A stretch of 64,000 nt of DNA from Massalongia carnosa (taxonomy: Eukaryota), in assembly GCA_965645245.1 (NCBI GenBank), contig OZ287069.1, positions 310,001 to 374,000 on the forward strand. The letters run 5' to 3'. Below the pieces are notes generated by a model. It was not told the DNA's origin. It worked only from the letters and a program-made list of their open reading frames with translations, and made no database searches. Both the position numbers and the translations under genes were made by a program. Below are positions 456 through 61,106 of this stretch, piece by piece (the stretch's first letter is position 1; each line of letters starts with the position of its first letter).

Positions 456-1825
456 TTACTTCCCCCCGAAATCCAACACGAAGCGCCTTCCCACTTCCAT
501 CTCCTGGTTCTGGTCGTCCTCGAACTTGAGCCGGTACACGTCTTTCTTCACGCCCGTGACCACGGCGCGGTAGAACGTGGTGGTCTCGGGGTAGCGGGCG
601 AGAACGGGCTTGCCGACGGGGTAATCCGTCAGCACGGCCTCAGCGCTTGGAATGGCGATCAAGGCGGCGGCGGAAGTCTTGTAGATCTGGCCAGGGGCTC
701 CGCTGTCATCGGGTTCGGGATCTTGGACTTCGTAGCTAAGAATGACAATGGTAAGTTTACTTTGATTACATTGCTAGAGGGGTTGCGAGATTACCGCTTC
801 TTGTTGCCGGCTTCGGTGATGGCAACGATGTTGCATTGAATCCATTGACTGCCATCCTCCTTCATTTTGGCCTGCTTGTAAGCAACCTCGGCGCCCACAA
901 AAAGCTTGCCCGATTTCTCCACCGACGGTCCCTTGCTCCCTTCCGCGCCGTCCACGGAAGTCTCTTTGCAGTCTTTCGTCGACGGGACGGACCCGCTGCG
1001 AACACTGGAACCCTTCAATTTCGTGGCCGAGGTCGTCGCTACGCTGGGCGAAGGACCAGGCGAGTCCGCCGCGCCATCCATGTCGGCTTTCTGCTTAATT
1101 TTCTGGCCCCGCGACTTGGATTGCTGCGGGTTGCGAGGCTCGTTGGCGCTGGCTGCGCATAAGGCCTTCAGAATGCCAATATTCTTGATCACATCGTGCG
1201 GCTCTTCACTGAGAATCGCCTTCTCTTCTTCGGCCAGTCGGTGGCCTTCTCGCCAGAAACTTGCAACCTCGGCCCATTGATCAGAAGTTCCGCCTAGCTC
1301 GTCATGGGGGTCAGTGGTGTTCCGCTAACAAGGTTCACATGAGTACAGGAGCCCAAGAGGGAGGCACAGAGAAATATTTATTGATCTAGTACGAGAGGGT
1401 AAACGAAAGGATTATGTGGGTTAGGGTTCAGCATATACGTCTCACAGGAGCGAAGCTAGCAAGGGCTCATGCTTGGAATATGACCAGTAGTTGCATCGCT
1501 AGAACACAAATAAGAATGCAAGTAAATCTGTCACTGTATTCTAGACGCTATGAGCTGCATCGCAAGATCATGCATCAGACATCACAGTCACACCGGGTTA
1601 TGCAGAGTAACAAAGCACACAGCAGGACGTTAACGTACCGTCACCAATTTCATCCTGAAGCGCTTTGGCCTTTGCCATAGCTGCTTCACTTCTTTCCTTC
1701 AGACTTTTGCATGTCTTCAGGTCGACGAGAATTTGACTCCACATTTTGATTTCTTCCTCTGCAGCAACGGGATCGTCCCTTGATGGACCCTGGCGAGGTC
1801 TATTGTTCCTGGCTGCCATGTTCAT
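456..1825 (-). CDS. SGF29: SAGA complex subunit Sgf29 (tandem Tudor), 3 exons
   Basis: C-terminal Tudor motifs (QWIQCNI...YEVQDPEPDD; GKPVLARYPETTTFYRAVV...YRLKFEDD...RRFVLD). Exons join across introns at about 1294-1638 and about 736-793. Start could be ATG 1825 or 1819. Confidence 0.92.
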
Positions 1826-2477
1826 GTACCTGAACTGTTCGATGTGCTTGAATTACTCTTCGTGAGGCGAATTTCTAAAGAGAGTACTTGTCGTAGATGT
1901 AGATGTGAATGTGACTCAATTTGTACTCGAGGAAGGGTGTGTTAACGATGATGGATGATTTACATGGAGGGAAGACGAGAGCGACGTTGAGCGAGCATGC
2001 TAGGATATACCGGTTCCAGGCGCAGTCTGTTAAAAGCTGTTAGGGTGTCGGTATTGGTGGATTGCACATGCGAATTCGCCTCATTCGCCTCATTCGCTTC
2101 ATTCTTGGGATTATTATCCGTTATTACTCTTCTTTTTCGTGGTTTGGGGAAGGCTTTGGCGTGAGTTTAAGTGCGTCCGTTCGCATCGTTCGCATCGGTT
2201 GGGGGCGTGTTTGCAGGTGATTGTGGCTGAAAGAGGCAGAAGTCGCTGGCACGTGGCTGGACGCCATTGAAAATAAAGATCTAATCTTATCAAATCATCC
2301 GAATCTGTGCTCGTATGCCGTATTCGTACTCGCGCAGTTAGTGTGCAGGTGAATTACTTCATCCGGTAAGATGTGCCGCATCCGGCTAGCCTGCCCCTCA
2401 CGTCACCTATCCTATGGAAGGCCTTTCTCACTCCCGCTCCTTCATCCCATTCGCACCGTCGATCTTTCATCATTACA

Positions 2478-4595
2478 ATGAACGTATTTGCATTTCATAA
2501 CGCATATTCTGAAACAGATGACGTCTCGAAGAATGAGAGCGACGAATAAACGAACTTTGACATCGACTCGAATGCTTTTGATGCGAATCTACTGAAGCTG
2601 AAGCTGAAGCTGCACAGATTGAACTCGAAGAAGGCACAACGAGACGTGGCAAAACATCCGAAAACGTGTGAAAGACCTTGCGTCAACTATACTATGATAT
2701 ATGTCATAAAATGATGATCGATGATGTTGACAAGAAGATTACCAATGTTCGTCGTTTTCGAGGCTTTTTCATCAGGCAGGCTTGGCTGGTTTTATGTAAT
2801 ATTTGCACGGGCAATTCTGCAGTGAGCGTGACCTGATTAAGAGTATGAGATACAAACACGTTGTTAGTCATAGCGGCCTTCATGGCGACTTCTACTATCA
2901 TTGAAAGTTCGAAACGGAAATCCTTGCTTTTGAGTTTAAGCGCGTGCAGCTTGCCGTAGGACCTTCATAGAAGCTCGGCCTGATGCTGTCGTCGAGAATG
3001 ACTCTATTGGACTGAACGAATGTCGCTTTACTCTACAGAAATGTAAAATTGAGACTCTAGCAGCCGCCGTACGAAGCATCGTTGCTGATCCTAAAAGTCA
3101 TCATCATGCTGAATAAGGGCAAACGCAAGCGAAATGTGCCATAAGTGTTCATTCATTGCTAAAAGTGCAGAAAGAAAAATCTTCACCCTGTGCGAGAACC
3201 ATATATGCCGTGCAATGTGTCCTATTCTTCGTTTTGTGATCATCGCCTTCGCCCACAATGCTTCTTCTTAAGGCTCGTCTTCGTCGAACTGACATTATAT
3301 ACATTGCACAAATTCTCCAGCCCAGACGGCCGCATTATCATTGACTTCGCTTTCAGGAACGACAGTCTGAAGACCTCAATCTTCCGTCGTTTCACATACT
3401 TCATGAAGAATATACACGTTGGCCCTTTCAGAACTCTATCCGTCAACTCAATTTCGTATCGGATCAAGAAAGTAGGCCAAAGAGCTGGCTTTAATCATTC
3501 CTTCCAGTCTTATGCTCTTCGGCGTGAGATGGGAACGGGACTGACAGATAAGTCTGTAAGCTGGAACACCTCACACATAGTCACCGCTAACGTTGCATTA
3601 GACTGCGGGTTCAGCGATCAGCAGCGTAATCAAAGTCTCGGCCACGCGTGATTGAATACTTTTCTTATCTCATCTAATGTGGTTGTCGACGTCCAGGCCA
3701 CTTTTCTCGATACCGTCAAGAATATTAGGAAGCTCTGCTTACACCGCATCCTCAATCTTCCGAAGCGGCTTTCGGGTCATCAGCGCACGCAGGCTCACCA
3801 GCACCCTGATGTCATCCGTGCTCAGAAAGAAAAGGACCTCCTCGCGCAAAAACTCAAGAACGACTTTAACACTATCAAAAATGGATCGAAGTCCTCCGAC
3901 GGTATTCAGCATACACGGGTTCAAAGTAGACTCAGAGTTTTAAAGCTGCGTGTGAAACGTGAAGCTTTCACAAAGATTCTTCGTGATTTTCACAGCGCTG
4001 TAGACCTGAATCATATGATGACACAGCTCAATCGAGAAGAGCCTCCTTCCAACATGCTCACATTAGTACCATATGTCCTGAAAGAACGCAGATAGCTTGC
4101 TCACGATCTGTTCCAATAAACGATTAAGTCCTCTTTCGCCAAAATGATTCACATCACGATGCGCCTTTGTTTACTCTCCGAAGCCAAGGAATAGAGATAC
4201 AGCAGTCACGAAAAGACACTATAGATCGAACCAACTCGCCATATACTTGCACCCAGCTTTCATCAATGACAACTGACGAACCTAGATATAGCGCCGACTC
4301 TATTGATCTTACTCTAGATCTTGATGACGTTAAACCTCTCAAAGATGCTGAACCTACAAAACCGTAGAGTTTATCAAGTCGATGAAGCTGACAGCATCTT
4401 TCAAGATTACTAAAGCAAAGAAGTTACTCACTTCTTTGACGTGTCTTTTCTATTACGACCCAAAGCGTGGCCGCACGCAGAATCTTACACGCAGCAATAA
4501 TTTGCGAAGGCACTATCGACAAGTGCACTTTCAATACCAGGTCGGCCCTTTTCCCTGTTCTCTACCATATTGTGAGAAGATCATCCGGGACCAAG
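2478..4595 (+). pseudogene. Decayed DUF3435 tyrosine recombinase (Starship captain-like) with C-terminal C2H2-type finger
   Basis: Fragmentary frames give KRVQLA...RPDAVVE...ALLYRNVKLRL...KGKRKR, CPILRFVIIAFAHNA, KKVGQRAGF..SYALRR.MG, SDQQRNQSLGHA*...SSNVVVDVQATFL, and LRRHYRQVHF...FPCSLPYC. Multiple in-frame stops and frameshifts; homology stops abruptly near 4595. Confidence 0.8.
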
Positions 4596-5278
4596 GAAAC
4601 CCCGTATCAGAAGGTAGCGGGAACTTTACCTGACTGGCTGGTTCACTTTTGTCGACTGCATTGTGGCACCGCTACATGAGCTGCCGCCGCCTAGCCCGGC
4701 GCCCCGTTTATTAGTAGATTATGGCACGACGAATCCCTGGTTATTAATTGGCTGATGATCTACGTGACCGCGACTTGATCTGCACCTCAAATTTGGATGG
4801 CAACAATCTAGACTCCTAAATTAGGCTCCCTACGGCCGCTTTTTTTTTTAAATATTACCGAATTATCTGGCAGATAAGACCCTAGTTTTATGGGCAAGTG
4901 AGTCGTCGAGAGGTCGTTTGAGATAGGGTTTTATGGGTTATCAGGTCTTGTAAATGAGGGGGGACTTATGGAGGAGAGGGGAGGGGGTTGAGTTGACGCC
5001 TAGAAACAGCAAAAGCCTCCGCCAAAAAATTTCGTGTATCGGGTGCAAAGGGTGGTGAGAACTAAGGAGGTCATTCATGAAGAAATGAAGTACGTAATGA
5101 AGGAAGAAGTGAAAGGTGTATTGAACAATCTGAATGCTGTTTTTGATAATGATGAGACTAAAAGTTAAGAAATAAATGTGAATGAGGATTAATCGTCGGC
5201 TAGTCGCTCGTTTAATCCTCTCCTTCCAAGAAGCATTCGCTTCTAGTCGGGGAAAGCAAACTTCGAAGAAAAGCAAGG

Positions 5279-5764
5279 TGTCACGGACAAGGTCCAGATA
5301 GGGAGATATGCAAGAGTTACTATTAGAAAGCTAGGTCTAGGGATAGTATACAAGACATCCGACGAAGAGCTTCAAACATCTGAGAAACCACATAGGTTTT
5401 ATAGCCATGGCTTCCAACTCCCCTATTCTTGACTTGCCCTCATCTCTATTCCTGTTCTAATTTCCTAACCATGATCGCTTTGACCTGTTCCGCCTTTCTC
5501 CATGCCGAAGCAATCTCTCTCTGCTGGGCAATCCCAGTCGTAGGCTTGGATAGTGGAGACGTTGAGATTGGATTCGGGATATAGGAGTTTGGGAGTGCAC
5601 TGAAGGCAGCGGAAGAACGTCTGAACACATGGGGTGAGGTTTCAGGATAGTTCGGAATAACGGGCCACGGTTCCATTCAACATGCAGGGCAGGTTTTACG
5701 GCAAGAGAGCTTGTTAAATACTAACCCGATCAGGAAACGTGGGATGCGAGGTAATTCCATGACA
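5279..5764. mobile_element. Solo LTR (family B, copy 1), 486 bp
   Basis: TGTCA...TGACA termini; near-identical direct copy at 51165-51650. Flanks CAAGG/GATTT are not a TSD. Confidence 0.85.
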
Positions 5765-6910
5765 GATTTCAAGACCATGAAGGAGAAACTGTCATTCTCA
5801 TCGCGTCAGTTTGTTTCTCAATCAAAGATCTGAATCAGCCGCAATGAAGACTGAAATTCCTATACAAAACGGCGAAGTTTTACAGCGCAAGTGTGATCAG
5901 AAATTTGTCAGGAAGCAAGTGAATATGTATGTGACACCTTGAGCTGAATGAAACATGTCTTCAAAGAATGTAAATCAGAACAAAAGTCAAACCTTGATGA
6001 CAGCGGAGGAAGAGCTTATACAAGAATCGGTGAAAAAAACGTGACGAAAGAAGAAGTAGCGAAATCATGAAAAGAACCGCCTAATATGAAAATCAGCTCA
6101 TGGTGGATCTATCGAAAATACAACGACTGACAATCAAATCAAAGACCTACTTGAAATCCCTTTTATCAAGAGCTGACTTCCCCACGGTATCGATGACGGC
6201 ATGAGGCAAGTCAAGAAGAACTCCCGTTGACGCATGAAAAAGCTGGTACGTGGACAGTGAAACGCCAAGCAAGGTTCAAAAAAGCTCAAGTGTAATCCGA
6301 CCTATTATTTTGATCAGCAAAAAATGCCCCGCCCGCGTTGCGGCTTTGCTTGCGGTAGATATCTTGAAGCATGTGCAAAAGACATTGACTACTAAATAAA
6401 TAACATAGAAGGCCACCCGGGCACGAGTCCAAGGCCCTAGAAGATGTTGCCGTCAGAGGAGCAGAGGATATGGAAAATTCTTTATAGCTTACACTACGGT
6501 CTACTCCTATTAGCAAACGCCTAGTAAGAAACCATTTCAGAGCATGGAGGGACCACGTTGACATGGAATAGGCGCTTCCGGCATTCAGTTCTTTCGTAAC
6601 ACACCACTTGTCGTTCATACCTAGCAGAAGTCTTTCAGGCAAAGACCACATCTTCTACACGCTCTTCTCCGCGATAGACCGATGGCCTGTATCAAGCAGC
6701 TTGGCTTGCAAGTTTATGTGCGTACAGGGATCGGTGTACATTTTATCAATCTCACACACCGCAGCACGAAGCAATCACACAGTGATCGATCATAGACTGG
6801 CCGAGTGACTTGAGCGATCCAAAGCACGAGGTCCTAGGTTTCAACGAGGGCTACACAAACACGAATAAAGAGCGCCGCAGACAACGAGCTGGTAGAGAGG
6901 TATAAGAAAT

Positions 6911-7234
6911 ATGTATGATGATTTCGTCCTACTTAGCCTGCGGAAGATACTGAATACATTTCACACTGAATGCGGCGACTGCAACCCTCTGCATTGGATA
7001 ACTCCATCAGTTGATGTTCGAGTAAATTTGCCAAATGACGCTGTGGCGGTAGTCGTCGACATTCGGGGTGGTCAAGGGACAATTCGCAATGTTTTCACGC
7101 AAGAGAACAAACATGTGGACGACGTTGGATCTATGAAAGAAGGCGGAAATCTGGTGATAGTCTCATGGAAAAGCAATTGGTGGTATTACGCCATAGAGTC
7201 TGTCTGCGTGGCGCACATCAGGAAGAAGTCTTGA
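6911..7234 (+). CDS. Small hypothetical protein (107 aa), possible cargo gene
   Basis: Uninterrupted ATG-started ORF with beta-strand-like composition (VRVNLPNDAVAVVVDIRGGQGTIRNVF...WKSNWWYY) in otherwise stop-riddled sequence; TATAAG just upstream. No family recognised. Confidence 0.35.
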   Translation: MYDDFVLLSLRKILNTFHTECGDCNPLHWITPSVDVRVNLPNDAVAVVVDIRGGQGTIRNVFTQENKHVDDVGSMKEGGNLVIVSWKSNWWYYAIESVCVAHIRKKS

Positions 7235-7599
7235 AAGACTCAATTTTCAATTCTTCACATTATCTGTATGTATTGTGTAAGTCTTTGGAGATTTGAATCA
7301 TGAAGAAGGTGCATATTTCTACTCGTATGGATCTATCAACAAGATTTCTTCGTAGATTTGATTTGACATCGCAAAAATTTGAAGGTCTCCGTACGTCAAT
7401 TCATAGACACGTTCAGTGAGAGGGCCTAACGTTCATTCCATATCAGTCATATGAACATCAAAGTCATTCCCTTCAAAATTGAAGGGCGAGTTATAATACA
7501 CATCTTCGGGGTTGATTTGCAGGTTGTCTTCTACATCATTATGATTTTTCGGTAATGGCGTCTGGTCGTGTGCATGCTTTGCGCGTTTCGAGGGTCTGA

Positions 7600-7950
7600 G
7601 CTCGATGTGTTCTGATCTTATGAGTACTCAACTATTCAGATTGATAGATCGGAGCGAACTCTTCAAAAAATTCCTAGAATGCCGCCTCATTCTCAGGATC
7701 AAAAAATCTGGCCGAGGTCTTTCTGTCGATGTCGTCACGATACAAATATTTCGAGAGCCTTTGCCGCTATACGAAGTTTGTTAAGTTAGCCATTAGAAAT
7801 TCGAACTAAGCTAGGGGCAATTCGTGGATTTCTTTGATCGTATAAGATAATCCGCAGAGTTTTAGAGCATCGCATTCCAGCCCCCGCAATTATGTCTATT
7901 TTTCTTTCCAACGATCTATCTTTTCAAAGACGAATTTGATGAAATGCTCA
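7600..7950 (-). pseudogene. Eroded protein-coding remnant of unknown family
   Basis: Minus strand reads as protein-like sequence broken by TAG/TAA stops: IRLFEKIDRWKEK*T*LRGLECDALKLCGLSYTIKEIHELP*...FLMANLTNFV*RQRLSKYLYRDDIDRKTSARFFDPENEAAF*EFFEEF. Boundaries approximate. Confidence 0.4.
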
Positions 7951-8881
7951 CACGAGTAGCATGCTGATTTCGGAGTGTCTTGTCGGATAGTGCTTGCAAT
8001 AACAATTTCTCTGTTTTTTGGAGCACTTTCTAGACTTCAAGCTGTACCTACAGTTCGGACAGCTATTCCAGCACAATATCGATTTCCAGGTCGGAATTAC
8101 GAGTACGCCAGCAGTCACTCTTGACCTCATCCAACTTTCGTTCATTCTCCGACGCCGAGGTTAGTTACTAACATCTTCAAGAATTCAACTTCGACCATAA
8201 TAATGTAAGACAATGAGCTCTCAAATACTGGTACGAGACAACGAACTCTCACACAGTAGAGCGGGGCCGTGAGCTTTTCAAGGAGGGTATAGAGGCTCGT
8301 AAAAGGTGCCGGTTAGCTAATCACATTATTTTTGCAACCTGCCAGCTTGCCCCGAGGAACTTCGACAATTTTTATGATTCTTCCTCAAATAAATGCAGGT
8401 GCCCATGCAAGTCTCCGCGATCGCGCAGAAACCTCTCCTTATCTGACGATATACGGAGTACAACGTTAGGAAAGGTGATAGACTATCGGAATTTTAGGCG
8501 ATCAATCAAGGTTATTGTCGCTCGTGCATGAAATCGTGTCCTCGACGGTCTTAATCTCTAATAAAAATGGAAATGACTATGCAGAGGATATGGCTGAGGG
8601 CTGAGGCGCGTGAAGGAGATGGAGTTGACCAAGCTCTTGGAAATATATAATGGTTTCTCAGCTCAGTCTGGTCTAGACAATTCTGAAAAATTACCGAGCA
8701 ATACCGTTAGATTGATTTCGCATTTCATGCGCTAAAAATATCACGTGAGGAGGCCTCGTATCCGTGTCCGCTTCAACTCAACTTTATATTGAATTCATCA
8801 GTAGTCGGTATATAGAACCCAAAGTGTTGTGCATACGATCCGCTTTAAGACAAGAGAAATTCTTAACTCCTGCGTACAGTC

Positions 8882-10546
8882 ATGCAGGTGCCACTGATTC
8901 GGCTGCAGTGTGGTGCGTTCATCCGCAATGGCCATGCAGCAAAAAGACAATGATGCTAATGCTAGAGCTGTAGGAGTAAATAGCTACGATTGGGGTATGC
9001 TATGCAACACTGAGGGTGAAAGAAGAGAACGAGGAAGCTCAGTGGTCATCTAGGCAAACTAGGCTCCGAGTCTGCGGCTGCAAAATGTGCAGCTGCGACT
9101 CAACATCCCTCCAATAGCTTTTCCATAGAAGAGGAGAAGCCTTATTCTGAAGTCCGTTTCTATTGGTCTATGACTATCAAAGCATTTACTGAAACCGGCA
9201 CAGCTATGGATGGGTACACATCCGTCCCTGCCTTCCAAGGACCTCGAAACACAGCGAAGCCTGCTCGACATGGTCCAGGACAACCAAGCTCTCATGTCGC
9301 CGGAAATCACCAAGCGATATGGCGGGAAGCTACCATTCTTGTTCAAGGTTCTCTCAATCTGTAAATCGTTGAGCATTCAAGCCCATCCAAACAAGAAACT
9401 TGCGGAAAAGCTCCATGCAAAGGATCCCAAGAATTACCCTGGTACTAATGTGCTCCCACCATTGTTGCTCTTCTCTAATAACAACGCCTTTAGACGACAA
9501 CCACAAGCCCGAAATGATCATTGCCGTAACCCCGTTTGATGGCCTTTGCGGTTTCCGACCTCTAGCAGAAATCACCCATTTCCTATCCAATGTCCTCTCC
9601 CTGCGGAAAATCATCGGAGACGCCGTGGCGAAAGAGTTTGAAGACTCGATCCACGATCACGAGAACTCCGAGGCAGCCGAGGATGTACAGAGGAACAAGA
9701 AGGCCCTTCAAGCCGCCTTCTCAGTCCTCATGAACGCAGACAAATCTGCTGTGGCGGTCGCAGCCAAGGAGCTGATCGCCTCCGCGAAAGCCGACGGGGA
9801 GAAATTTGCAGGTGGCGGTGGCCCTGCCAACGAAGGCCAGGAGCTAGCAGATTTAGTCGTGAGGCTCAACGAGCAGTATGAGGGAGACATTGGGCTATTC
9901 GTGCTCTTCTTCCTCAACTACATTAAGCTCGAGGTTGGAGAAGCAATGTTCCTCAAAGCCGACGACATCCACGCCTATCTCAGCGGAGGTAAAACCACCC
10001 ATCTTCCCATCTCCCAACCCCTCTTTACTTAGCGTTTCCCAAATTTAACATGACTCGCCCTACCCTTCAGATGTCATCGAATGCATGGCCTCCTCCGACA
10101 ACGTCGTCCGCGCTGGCTTTACGCCCAAATACCAAGATATCCCCACTCTCACCTCCATGCTAACCTACTCTTACGCGCCAATCTCCTCCCAAAAAATGTC
10201 CCCACGTCCTTACCCGCACGCGACCCTGAACGCCCCCGCCTACAGCTCCTCCAGCAGCGCCATCCTGTACGACCCGCCCATTGAGGAATTTAGCGTCGTG
10301 AAGACTGAGCTGCGCGCCCGGGGCGCCAAGGTGACGTTTGAGGCTATTGCGGGGCCGAGCGTGGTGCTTTGCACGGGGGGCCATGGACATATCAGCGTGG
10401 GAAATAAGAAGGAGGAGCTCAAGCACGGATATGTATTCTTCGTAGGGGCGACGGCGGAACTGGTGCTGGAGAGTTCGGGCGAAGAGCCATTTACGACGTT
10501 TAAGGCGTTTTGCGAGCTGGAGGAAAAGGTGGTGAACGGTGCATGA
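8882..10546 (+). CDS. PMI40: Mannose-6-phosphate isomerase (class I PMI), multi-exon
   Basis: [18 protein letters not shown]/...[65 protein letters not shown]; includes short 5' exons. Confidence 0.96.
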
Positions 10547-59646: not shown

Positions 59647-61106
59647 CGGAGGATGACACGGAAAGTCCTTGGTAGCGCGCATTAGTGCTATTTTAGCGTC
59701 ATGCAGAAGAGACACTAAAAATCAAATAGGGGGTTATTATAAACATCGTACATTTGGGACTGTACAGCATCTTTCATTTATTATATATCGTTAAATAAAA
59801 TTTTATATGCCTCAAATCATGACATCGAGAACTCAGAGTAATAGTCTAACCATTGGACAAAGATTACAAGCATTATCAATGATTGAACACGGCATATCAG
59901 CCAAAGTCGTTCAAGCAATTACCGAAGTCTCCATTCAGTCTATTAGCTCTCTCAAACGCAAGGCTCGAGATCGAGGATATGACCCCACAGTTTCACGGGT
60001 TCTGAAGGTAGAATATGTATGTGCAAGATGCGCCTCGTTCGGGACGTCCTTTCAAAGTGACGCCTGCAATAGAACAGGCTATCTTGAACGTTCGTCATGA
60101 TCGAAACGGTAGAGAAAAATCCTCGGCCGTTTTGGGATATGAACACGGAGTTTCATCTACAGTCATTCTCGGTGTCCTTCGACGCAACAATTTTCGTTCC
60201 TGTAAATTTACCATGAAACCGGGCCTTAATTCAGCGATGAAAGAGGCTCGATTGCAGTTTTGTTTGCGTTATCGTCACTGGACGCTCGAAGATTGGAAAA
60301 ATTTTATATGGAGCGATGAAACCAGTGTTATGTTAGGCTCTCATAGGGGGCGAAGACTTCAATGGCGTACTTCGAAAGAAAAATATGCTCAGACGTGCAT
60401 TCGACGTAGATGGAAAGGATGTTCCGAGTTCATGTTTTGGGGTTGTTATTCGTATGAAAAGAAAGGTCCTTTTCATATATGGAAGCCGGAGACTGCATCA
60501 GAAAAACGGGCTGCTGAAACAGAAATTGACAAAATCAATAAGACGTTAGAGCCTTTAGCGAAAGCAAGTTGGGAACTGGAGACAGGCATGAAACGAATGG
60601 GACTGCGTAACAAAGGAGGCCGAAAACCAACCTGGAGATGGGATGAAAAGCATGGAAAGTGGTTCGAAAAGGCAAAGGAGGCATCGATTGGTATCGATAT
60701 CAAAAGATCATTCTTCTTCCTAAACTTCTTCCATTTGCCAAAGAATGTATGAAAGATCATCCCGATACTATTGTGCAAGAGGACAAGGCTCCCAGTCATG
60801 CTTCCAACCATCAAGACCTTGTCTTTATGGATGCAGGAGTCTTGCGTCTGCTGTGGCCGGGTAATTCTCCCGATTTAAACATGATCGAGCAATGTTGGCC
60901 TTGGATGAAAAGACAAACCACACGAAAAGGAGCACCTCGAAATCGTATTACGGCTGCCAAAGCATAGACTCAGTGCTGGATCAAAGATCTCAAACAGGAA
61001 CAAATTCAGCATTGGATAGAACGAATTCCACGACATATCGAGAAAGTCATTGCTTTGAATGGGGGAAACGAGTATCGAGAAGGTCGAGACAACGGTATAA
61101 TTCGAC
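59647..61106 (+). mobile_element. Tc1-like (DD34E) transposon copy 2; left end and transposase, right end not in window
   Basis: TA|CGGAGGATGACACGGAAAGTCCTTG TIR. Transposase from 59807 has WSDETS and QEDKAPSH-X-SPDLNMIE (34-aa spacing), two frameshifts and a TAG at 60964. Confidence 0.9.

What the first reader, a model, noticed from the sequence alone, without database searches (positions are those of the whole stretch)
2354..8700. Derelict Starship-like element: DUF3435 captain pseudogene wedged between SGF29 and PMI40
Seen: a ~6.4 kb island separates two divergent core genes. Its first gene points inward and keeps the motifs of a DUF3435 tyrosine recombinase (RP..VE, KG.R, YALRR, LGH). The segment that normally holds the catalytic Tyr after LGH appears deleted (GHA*LNTFLISSN). 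Established: DUF3435 captains are the first gene of Starship giant transposons. Inference: this is a collapsed Starship relic, or a miniature captain-plus-few-cargo element far smaller than described Starships.
Basis: partly seen in the sequence, partly recalled or inferred. Interest (0 to 1): 0.7.

Follow-up and report, generated by a model that had tools for sequence, protein, structure and literature searches.

The report
Collapsed wreck of a Starship transposon
Between two housekeeping genes of a fungus lies the broken remnant of a Starship cargo transposon (its sharp left end, a dead recombinase gene and a flipped piece of a cargo gene), likely shrunk by deletions rather than born small; this is ordinary decay, useful mainly because it shows the end sequence shared by better-preserved relatives.

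Summary
Confirmed as a derelict Starship; not a miniature element. Window 2478-4591 is a DUF3435 captain pseudogene with 8 premature stops, at least 5 frameshifts, a 249-bp N-terminal deletion and a clean 9-bp deletion of K-H-Y, the likely catalytic Tyr. New: the element's left end is at 2331. A 69-bp terminus starting CGCG is 81-90% identical in 8 of 11 related metagenome loci, with unrelated flanks in the 7 that have flanks. Relatives carry SIR2 next to the captain (8 of 9 close loci), and in 3 a co-oriented ferric reductase (FRE). The window lacks SIR2 and keeps a 0.7-kb FRE piece, inverted and cut by a solo Ty3 LTR whose flanks do not form the 5-bp target duplication seen at two control copies. 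That points to LTR-LTR deletion. A pogo end stub and a second cargo-like pseudogene fill the rest. No empty site or right end was found: an independent sample about 1-2% diverged has the island at the same site. Ordinary decay of a known class. Side lead: a separate 16-copy NLR-carrying Starship family, mostly near chromosome ends.

The parts
2331..2399 (+). Starship 5' terminus, 69 bp, starting CGCG (possible target-site repeat)
   Evidence: 56-62 of 69 nt identical in 8 related loci; the 40 nt upstream match only 9-16 of 40 in the 7 loci with flanks
2478..4591 (+). DUF3435 tyrosine-recombinase captain pseudogene with C-terminal C2H2-like finger; last ~45 codons missing
   Evidence: PF11917; 70-75% DNA identity to L056-L064; indel list; stops
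3511..3525 (+). YALRR (YxxR) catalytic motif
   Evidence: YxxR marks clades 1 and 3 per PMC11162782 section 20
3637..3675 (+). LGH, premature TGA at 3649, and 9-bp deletion of K-H-Y after 3665
   Evidence: DNA alignment to 4 relatives; protein alignment
4853..5163 (.). old dispersed-repeat fragment, 71% identical to copies on C15 and C22
5190..5276 (.). terminal 87 bp of a pogo/Fot1-type (DDE_1) DNA transposon, preceded by TA, cut at the LTR
   Evidence: 94-95% identical to both ends of L052 and L053; DDE_1 in L053
5279..5764 (.). solo LTR of a high-copy Ty3/gypsy family; flanks CAAGG and GATTT do not match
   Evidence: 97-98% identical to the 39 best other copies; 373 candidates, 40 scored; RT, RNase H and integrase in L054; controls L054 and L039 have matching 5-bp duplications
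5767..6483 (-). ferric reductase (FRE) pseudogene fragment, inverted relative to the captain, cut at both ends
   Evidence: 55 homologs at E<=1e-3, FRE by Pfam; 67-71% DNA identity to FRE of L059, L060, L063
6911..7234 (+). open 107-aa ORF of unknown nature
   Evidence: weak ascomycete look-alikes only, score 0.80-0.82, a lead only; single copy
7475..8270 (-). pseudogene of a ~240-aa hypothetical protein; cargo status not shown
   Evidence: 5 homologs at 51-69% identity, one from Psora testacea; no significant Pfam match; at least 7 stops in the matched frames
456..1825 (-). host gene SGF29 (left flank)
   Evidence: PF07039 E 1.1e-26
8882..10546 (+). host gene PMI40, phosphomannose isomerase (right flank)
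   Evidence: PF20511, PF20512, PF01238; start read

Best explanation
This is a dead Starship remnant: the element's exact left end and a broken captain recombinase gene sit beside an inverted ferric-reductase fragment, and it likely shrank from a larger element by deletions, the last probably by recombination between two Ty3 LTRs. Shown: terminus, captain lesions, FRE fragment, missing SIR2 module, pogo stub, LTR without target duplication. Inferred order: (1) a captain of this lineage inserted the element between the SGF29 and PMI40 promoters, probably at CGCG; (2) the copy decayed for a long time and lost its 3' captain end and the SIR2 module, and the FRE segment was flipped (about 60:40 against coming from a second, oppositely oriented sister copy); (3) a pogo element inserted at TA, and young Ty3 elements inserted into the pogo end and into FRE; (4) recombination between those two LTRs removed everything between them. 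The relic cannot move itself and is likely neutral.
For: PF11917 hits and motif alignment. 69-bp terminus in 8 of 11 loci, where their mutual alignments begin, with unrelated flanks. FRE is listed as a conserved Starship gene in PMC9156397 Table 2 (passage). The window FRE is 71.4% identical to that of L059, like the captain (70.1%), so both are from one lineage. SIR2 follows the captain in 8 of 9 close loci and in the C7 sister relic, but not in the 64-kb window. LTR flanks mismatch while 2 of 2 controls match. The window differs at 16-17% of positions invariant in relatives, against 4-10% for each relative. The LTR is 97-98% identical to its family, so it is much younger. A second copy of the lineage on C7 has collapsed to about 1.65 kb.
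Against: No empty site and no right terminus or matching 3' repeat were found, so insertion is inferred from relatives only. The stub-LTR junction (5276/5279) is not bridged by any listed contig of the 4 runs laid, so the collapse junction rests on the assembly alone. The 6483 breakpoint carries no repeat, so the inversion has no shown mechanism. 6500-8700 matches none of the related elements.
Confidence: 0.8

Rival explanations
1. Two relics fused: the left part (terminus and captain) and the right part (FRE, small ORF, hypothetical gene) come from two sister elements inserted in opposite directions at one site and joined by the LTR deletion. This is a variant of the best explanation, not an alternative to 'dead Starship'.
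For: FRE and the hypothetical gene both point against the captain. L060 shows a related element's FRE-kinase module directly upstream of its captain, so stacking happens in this lineage. The right-hand genes are not in the related elements.
Against: No second terminus or captain piece on the minus strand in 4600-8900. FRE and captain are equally diverged from the same relative.
Confidence: 0.3
2. A miniature captain-plus-few-cargo element of about 6.4 kb that moved as a unit.
For: The 5' terminus is well kept; the island is far below the 15,020-bp smallest Starship in PMC11162782 (passage).
Against: The non-repeat parts are single copy apart from captain fragments on C7. All identified genes are broken or cut mid-domain; FRE is inverted; no 3' terminus was found.
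Confidence: 0.04
3. The central junction is an assembly misjoin between two LTR copies, so the real locus is longer.
For: A misjoin would also give mismatched LTR flanks; no listed contig bridges the junction.
Against: The assembly has 25 contigs, and 6 of 7 sampled ends carry telomere repeats, so a 486-bp repeat is likely spanned. Depth is similar on both sides in X1 (28 and 26) and X2.
Confidence: 0.05
4. The relic has been co-opted, for example as promoter sequence for SGF29 or PMI40, or through the open 107-aa ORF.
For: It is present in a second sample 1-2% diverged and sits between two promoters; the terminus is better kept (81-90%) than the captain (70-75%).
Against: The terminus is also the most conserved part among the relatives, so its identity needs no selection here. 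The island differs between samples at least as often as its flanks in the listed rows (partial list). No RNA run was found (asked for DNA).
Confidence: 0.04

Closest known systems
Starship superfamily, clade 1 or 3 (YxxR captains); PMC11162782, PMC9156397
   Same: DUF3435 captain as first gene, about 150 bp (400-550 bp in relatives) from a sharp 5' end; FRE cargo; relatives also carry NLR-type TPR genes (L057); nested TEs.
   Different: At most 6.5 kb against a smallest described size of 15,020 bp (that study filtered out elements under 15 kb); captain dead; no 3' end or empty site; family not assigned.
'Derelict' degraded Starship regions of Macrophomina phaseolina (PMC9156397)
   Same: Degraded Starship whose cargo remnants, including FRE, persist.
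   Different: There the captain is gone and cargo persists; here the captain and terminus are recognisable and the cargo is also destroyed.
Tangerine and other lichen Starships (PMC13486527; Peltigera preprint 10.64898/2026.06.16.732702)
   Same: Named homologs come from lichen-forming fungi (Teloschistes, Lambiella, Stereocaulon, Psora); nested Ty3 elements; present at one position within a species.
   Different: Tangerine is 85-102 kb with DUF3723, PLP and NLR, and most of its family lacks the core-binding domain. The full-length relative P0014 (778 aa) has about 200 residues before the first catalytic Arg, and the lineage carries SIR2 and FRE.

Membership tests
Starship superfamily | DUF3435 tyrosine-recombinase gene first at the 5' end, pointing inward | tested here: met
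   (as a pseudogene)
Starship superfamily | Sharp element boundary shared by copies at different sites | tested here: met
   5' end only: 8 of 11 loci, unrelated flanks in 7
Starship superfamily | Auxiliary genes (FRE, DUF3723, PLP, NLR) | tested here: met
   FRE fragment; the other three not found in six frames of 4600-8903
Starship superfamily | Empty site in a related genome | tested here: inconclusive
   4 of 7 listed runs laid; none shows a joint across the island, X1 carries it; no more distant genome was available
Starship superfamily | Short direct repeats or terminal inverted repeats at both ends | tested here: inconclusive
   CGCG opens all 9 termini; no convincing 3' partner in the window or 6 relatives
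Active Starship | Intact captain with the R-K-H/Y-R-H-Y residues | tested here: not met
   8 stops, at least 5 frameshifts, K-H-Y deleted
Active Starship | Length of 15 kb or more | tested here: not met
   at most 6,551 bp from 2331 to the PMI40 start
Named Starship family (Phoenix, Hephaestus, Tardis, Serenity, Prometheus and others) | Placement in the captain reference phylogeny or family HMMs | not testable with these tools
   reference set not held; YALRR only narrows to clade 1 or 3
Tangerine family | Captain with lost or very short core-binding domain; monophyly with Tangerine captains | tested here: inconclusive
   P0014 has a long N-terminal part, but its model was poor (mean pLDDT 46); the paper's supplement could not be read

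The most novel reading that the evidence does not exclude
The relic marks a compact Starship lineage of lichen-forming fungi: it opens with a conserved CGCG-led 69-bp terminus, carries captain, SIR2, an unknown gene, FRE, a kinase-like gene and PLAC8, and may end after only 11-13 kb, below the 15-kb cut-off of the standard finder. L059, L060 and L063 are collinear for 10.6-12.6 kb from the terminus and then stop matching, but their right ends are not defined and two of the three loci end there.
Probability: 0.2. Interest if true: 0.55.

Novelty: new member of a known kind. Interest (0 to 1): 0.3.

Why it matters
As it stands, modestly. It is a worked example of how a Starship dies: point decay, small deletions, TE invasion and probable LTR-LTR collapse, inside a divergent promoter of two core genes. 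The reusable result is the 69-bp terminus, which gives base-exact left ends for relatives without needing an empty site; papers on lichen Starships name that need as a limit. If the lineage proves to be 11-13 kb, it would be a small natural chassis for studying captain-driven transposition.

Tried and rejected
One search covered the FRE region in the wrong frame and found nothing; one search used the right frame. One segment (3020-3139) was also printed in a non-homologous frame and was left out of the stop count. Repeat scan of 1900-9200 gave only short chance-like repeats. Classical CpA RIP is not supported: RIP indices are unremarkable and CpA changes are 16 of 116. The 16-copy captain family of this genome is not the parent: no blastn match to the island, and about 23-35% protein identity to P0014. 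Genomic context for the hypothetical gene could not be had: the metagenome records are not held as searchable genomes and viral contigs gave none. ESM Atlas hits for the 107-aa ORF and for P0073 were under 0.9, leads only. PDB sequence search for P0014 gave only non-significant XerA/XerC and zinc-finger hits. The AlphaFold model of P0014 was too poor to use, so no fold search was run. Run X5 has low depth and gaps; its uncovered bins were not read as absence. Earlier-findings look-ups were empty. A whole-word search for CGCG, Lambiella and Teloschistes in the one held supplement file of PMC11162782 found nothing, but the file holds about 4.0 million characters and may be cut.
Full report
Setting. 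The window is G000:C3:310001-374000 of a 52.16-Mb, 25-contig genome. SGF29 (minus strand) and PMI40 (plus strand) are confirmed by Pfam and are divergent, with 7,056 bp between their starts. Homologs of the island's genes that bear a name come from lichen-forming fungi, and one run holding the region is labelled lichen metagenome. The host is therefore likely a lichen-forming ascomycete; I did not go further.

The captain. Two open pieces hit PF11917, and one frame read through with X gives E 1.6e-22. Fifteen of 272 candidates were homologs at 55-76% identity, including a 778-aa protein, P0014, with DUF3435 and Phage_integrase matches. The pseudogene runs from ATG 2478 to about 4591. Against L062 it has lost about 268 bp of leader, 249 bp at 2653, and 13, 5, 18, 1, 9, 18, 1, 1 and 3 bp further on; homology stops near 4588, about 45 codons short. 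Eight premature stops lie in homologous frames. The 9-bp loss after 3665 removes K-H-Y of LGHARSDTFLKHY; reading that Tyr as the nucleophile follows from the general tyrosine-recombinase motif, not from a test here.

The left end. A scan of metagenome contigs with alignment A1 gave 11 loci from 510 candidate stretches. Eight share window 2331-2399 at 56-62 of 69 nt, and their alignments with each other start at that base. The 40 nt upstream match at 9-16 of 40 in the seven that have flanks; the L059 contig starts at the terminus. Of the other three, L058 starts inside the captain, and L065 and L066 are distant (44% protein identity). All nine termini open with CGCG. Copies at different sites with one sharp end are what a mobile element gives. 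Whether CGCG is the target repeat is not shown, because no 3' partner was found.

What the relatives carry. L059 reads captain, SIR2 (minus strand, PF02146 E 3.6e-18), an unknown gene, FRE, a kinase-like gene (weak Pkinase hit in its L060 paralog only) and PLAC8. SIR2 follows the captain in 8 of 9 close loci; FRE, co-oriented with the captain, is in 3 of 9. L057 goes on to a TPR gene, and L064 diverges after 5.4 kb. L059, L060 and L063 stay collinear for 10.6-12.6 kb; their right ends are not defined.

What the window keeps. No SIR2, third gene, kinase or PLAC8 sequence is found in the window by blastn, or in 4591-8900 by nhmmer. A FRE fragment lies at 5767-6483 on the minus strand: a weak Pfam hint, 55 homologs that are ferric reductases, and 67-71% DNA identity to the relatives' FRE. 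It lacks its first ~40 codons and everything from the FAD-binding domain on, and it ends at the LTR. Further right are an open 107-aa ORF with no firm relative and a broken gene for a ~240-aa protein with five homologs. Whether these two were cargo is not shown.

The collapse. The middle holds a 71%-identity repeat fragment (4853-5163), the last 87 bp of a pogo-type element after TA (5190-5276) and a solo Ty3 LTR (5279-5764). The intact Ty3 copy L054 and the solo LTR in L039 both have matching 5-bp flanks; the window LTR has CAAGG and GATTT. Its left side sits in the pogo end and its right side in FRE, and both hosts are cut there. Recombination between two LTRs that inserted separately explains this; it is an inference from two controls. 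The window differs at 258 of 1,599 positions invariant in four relatives, against 4-10% for each relative, while the LTR is 97-98% identical to its family, so the captain died long before the LTR arrived. A second member of the lineage on C7 is cut down to about 1.65 kb of captain and SIR2 pieces.

Against the reading. Seven runs were listed and four laid. X2 and X3 match the window almost exactly and may be its source. X1, from another study, differs at 59 of 4,954 and 92 of 5,086 positions and carries both halves, bridging the left terminus, the pogo junction and the LTR-FRE junction. No joint skips the island. So there is no presence/absence evidence, and the right boundary lies somewhere between about 8270 and 8881. 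No listed contig bridges 5276-5279, so the collapse junction rests on the assembly. The inversion breakpoint at 6483 has no repeat.

Comparison. From passages and sections 20 and 23 of PMC11162782: the smallest Starship was 15,020 bp after a 15-kb filter, YxxR marks clades 1 and 3, and degraded copies are to be called derelict. From passages of PMC9156397: FRE is a conserved Starship gene and degraded regions are common. From the abstract and sections 6 and 8 of PMC13486527 and passages of the Peltigera preprint: Starships and many orphan captains are known in lichen fungi. Four paper searches were read as listings only beyond these; I make no claim that the lineage is undescribed. The unreadable Tangerine supplement and any part of the PMC11162782 tables beyond the held text may already assign these captains and their repeats.

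Verdict. It works like nothing now: a dead Starship remnant, a new example of a known kind. Membership in the superfamily is met by captain, terminus and FRE; activity and size are not met; family is untested. Interest 0.3. The compact-lineage reading (probability 0.2) and the 16-copy family noted in passing deserve more attention than the relic itself.

Noticed in passing
G000 C6, C7 (two), C8, C10, C11, C12, C13 (two), C14 (two), C17 (two), C18, C19, C20; loci L021-L027, L029-L037, L068-L087: A second, unrelated Starship family with 16 captain loci, mostly 91-99.9% identical, each followed by a minus-strand gene with 2.7 to over 34 copies of a 126-bp unit (patatin, NB-ARC and TPR domains in the copies scanned). 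Shared sequence runs up to 28 kb in the copies followed, with nested TEs. 13 of 16 lie 136-338 kb from a contig end and point toward it; some share upstream flanks, so they are not all independent. This is far above the 0-5 copies seen in the visible rows of the Macrophomina table.
   Followed up: partly
window 2331-4588: C-to-T decay of the relic is biased to CpC (37 of 113, against 51 of 358 in other contexts; Fisher p 2.7e-5), not the CpA of classical RIP. One locus only; cause unknown.
   Followed up: partly
G000:C7:1276108-1277756 (L048, L049): Second collapsed relic of the window's lineage: clipped 5' end, captain pieces, a SIR2 fragment and a piece of the next module.
   Followed up: partly
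L050 1951-5852 and L051 1904-5563 (C15, C22): A 3.7-3.9-kb segment, 96-97% identical on two contigs, holding a proteasome-subunit ORF, an FSH1 ORF and the repeat seen at window 4853-5163; possibly a gene-capturing element.
   Followed up: no
L060 4559-7695: A related element's FRE and kinase-like module lies directly upstream of the L060 terminus, suggesting stacked or nested elements.
   Followed up: no
L095 (G000:C11:2287709-2297708): The end of contig C11 lacks telomere repeats and holds bacterial-looking response-regulator ORFs, possibly contamination from a lichen-associated bacterium (judged by eye).
   Followed up: no
G000 C5:1574660, C2:807224-808496, C21:402709, C10:197391: Further DUF3435 loci outside both families or fragmentary; not studied.
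   Followed up: no
window 60012-60749: ORF that looks like a Tc1/mariner-type transposase by eye; not tested.
   Followed up: no
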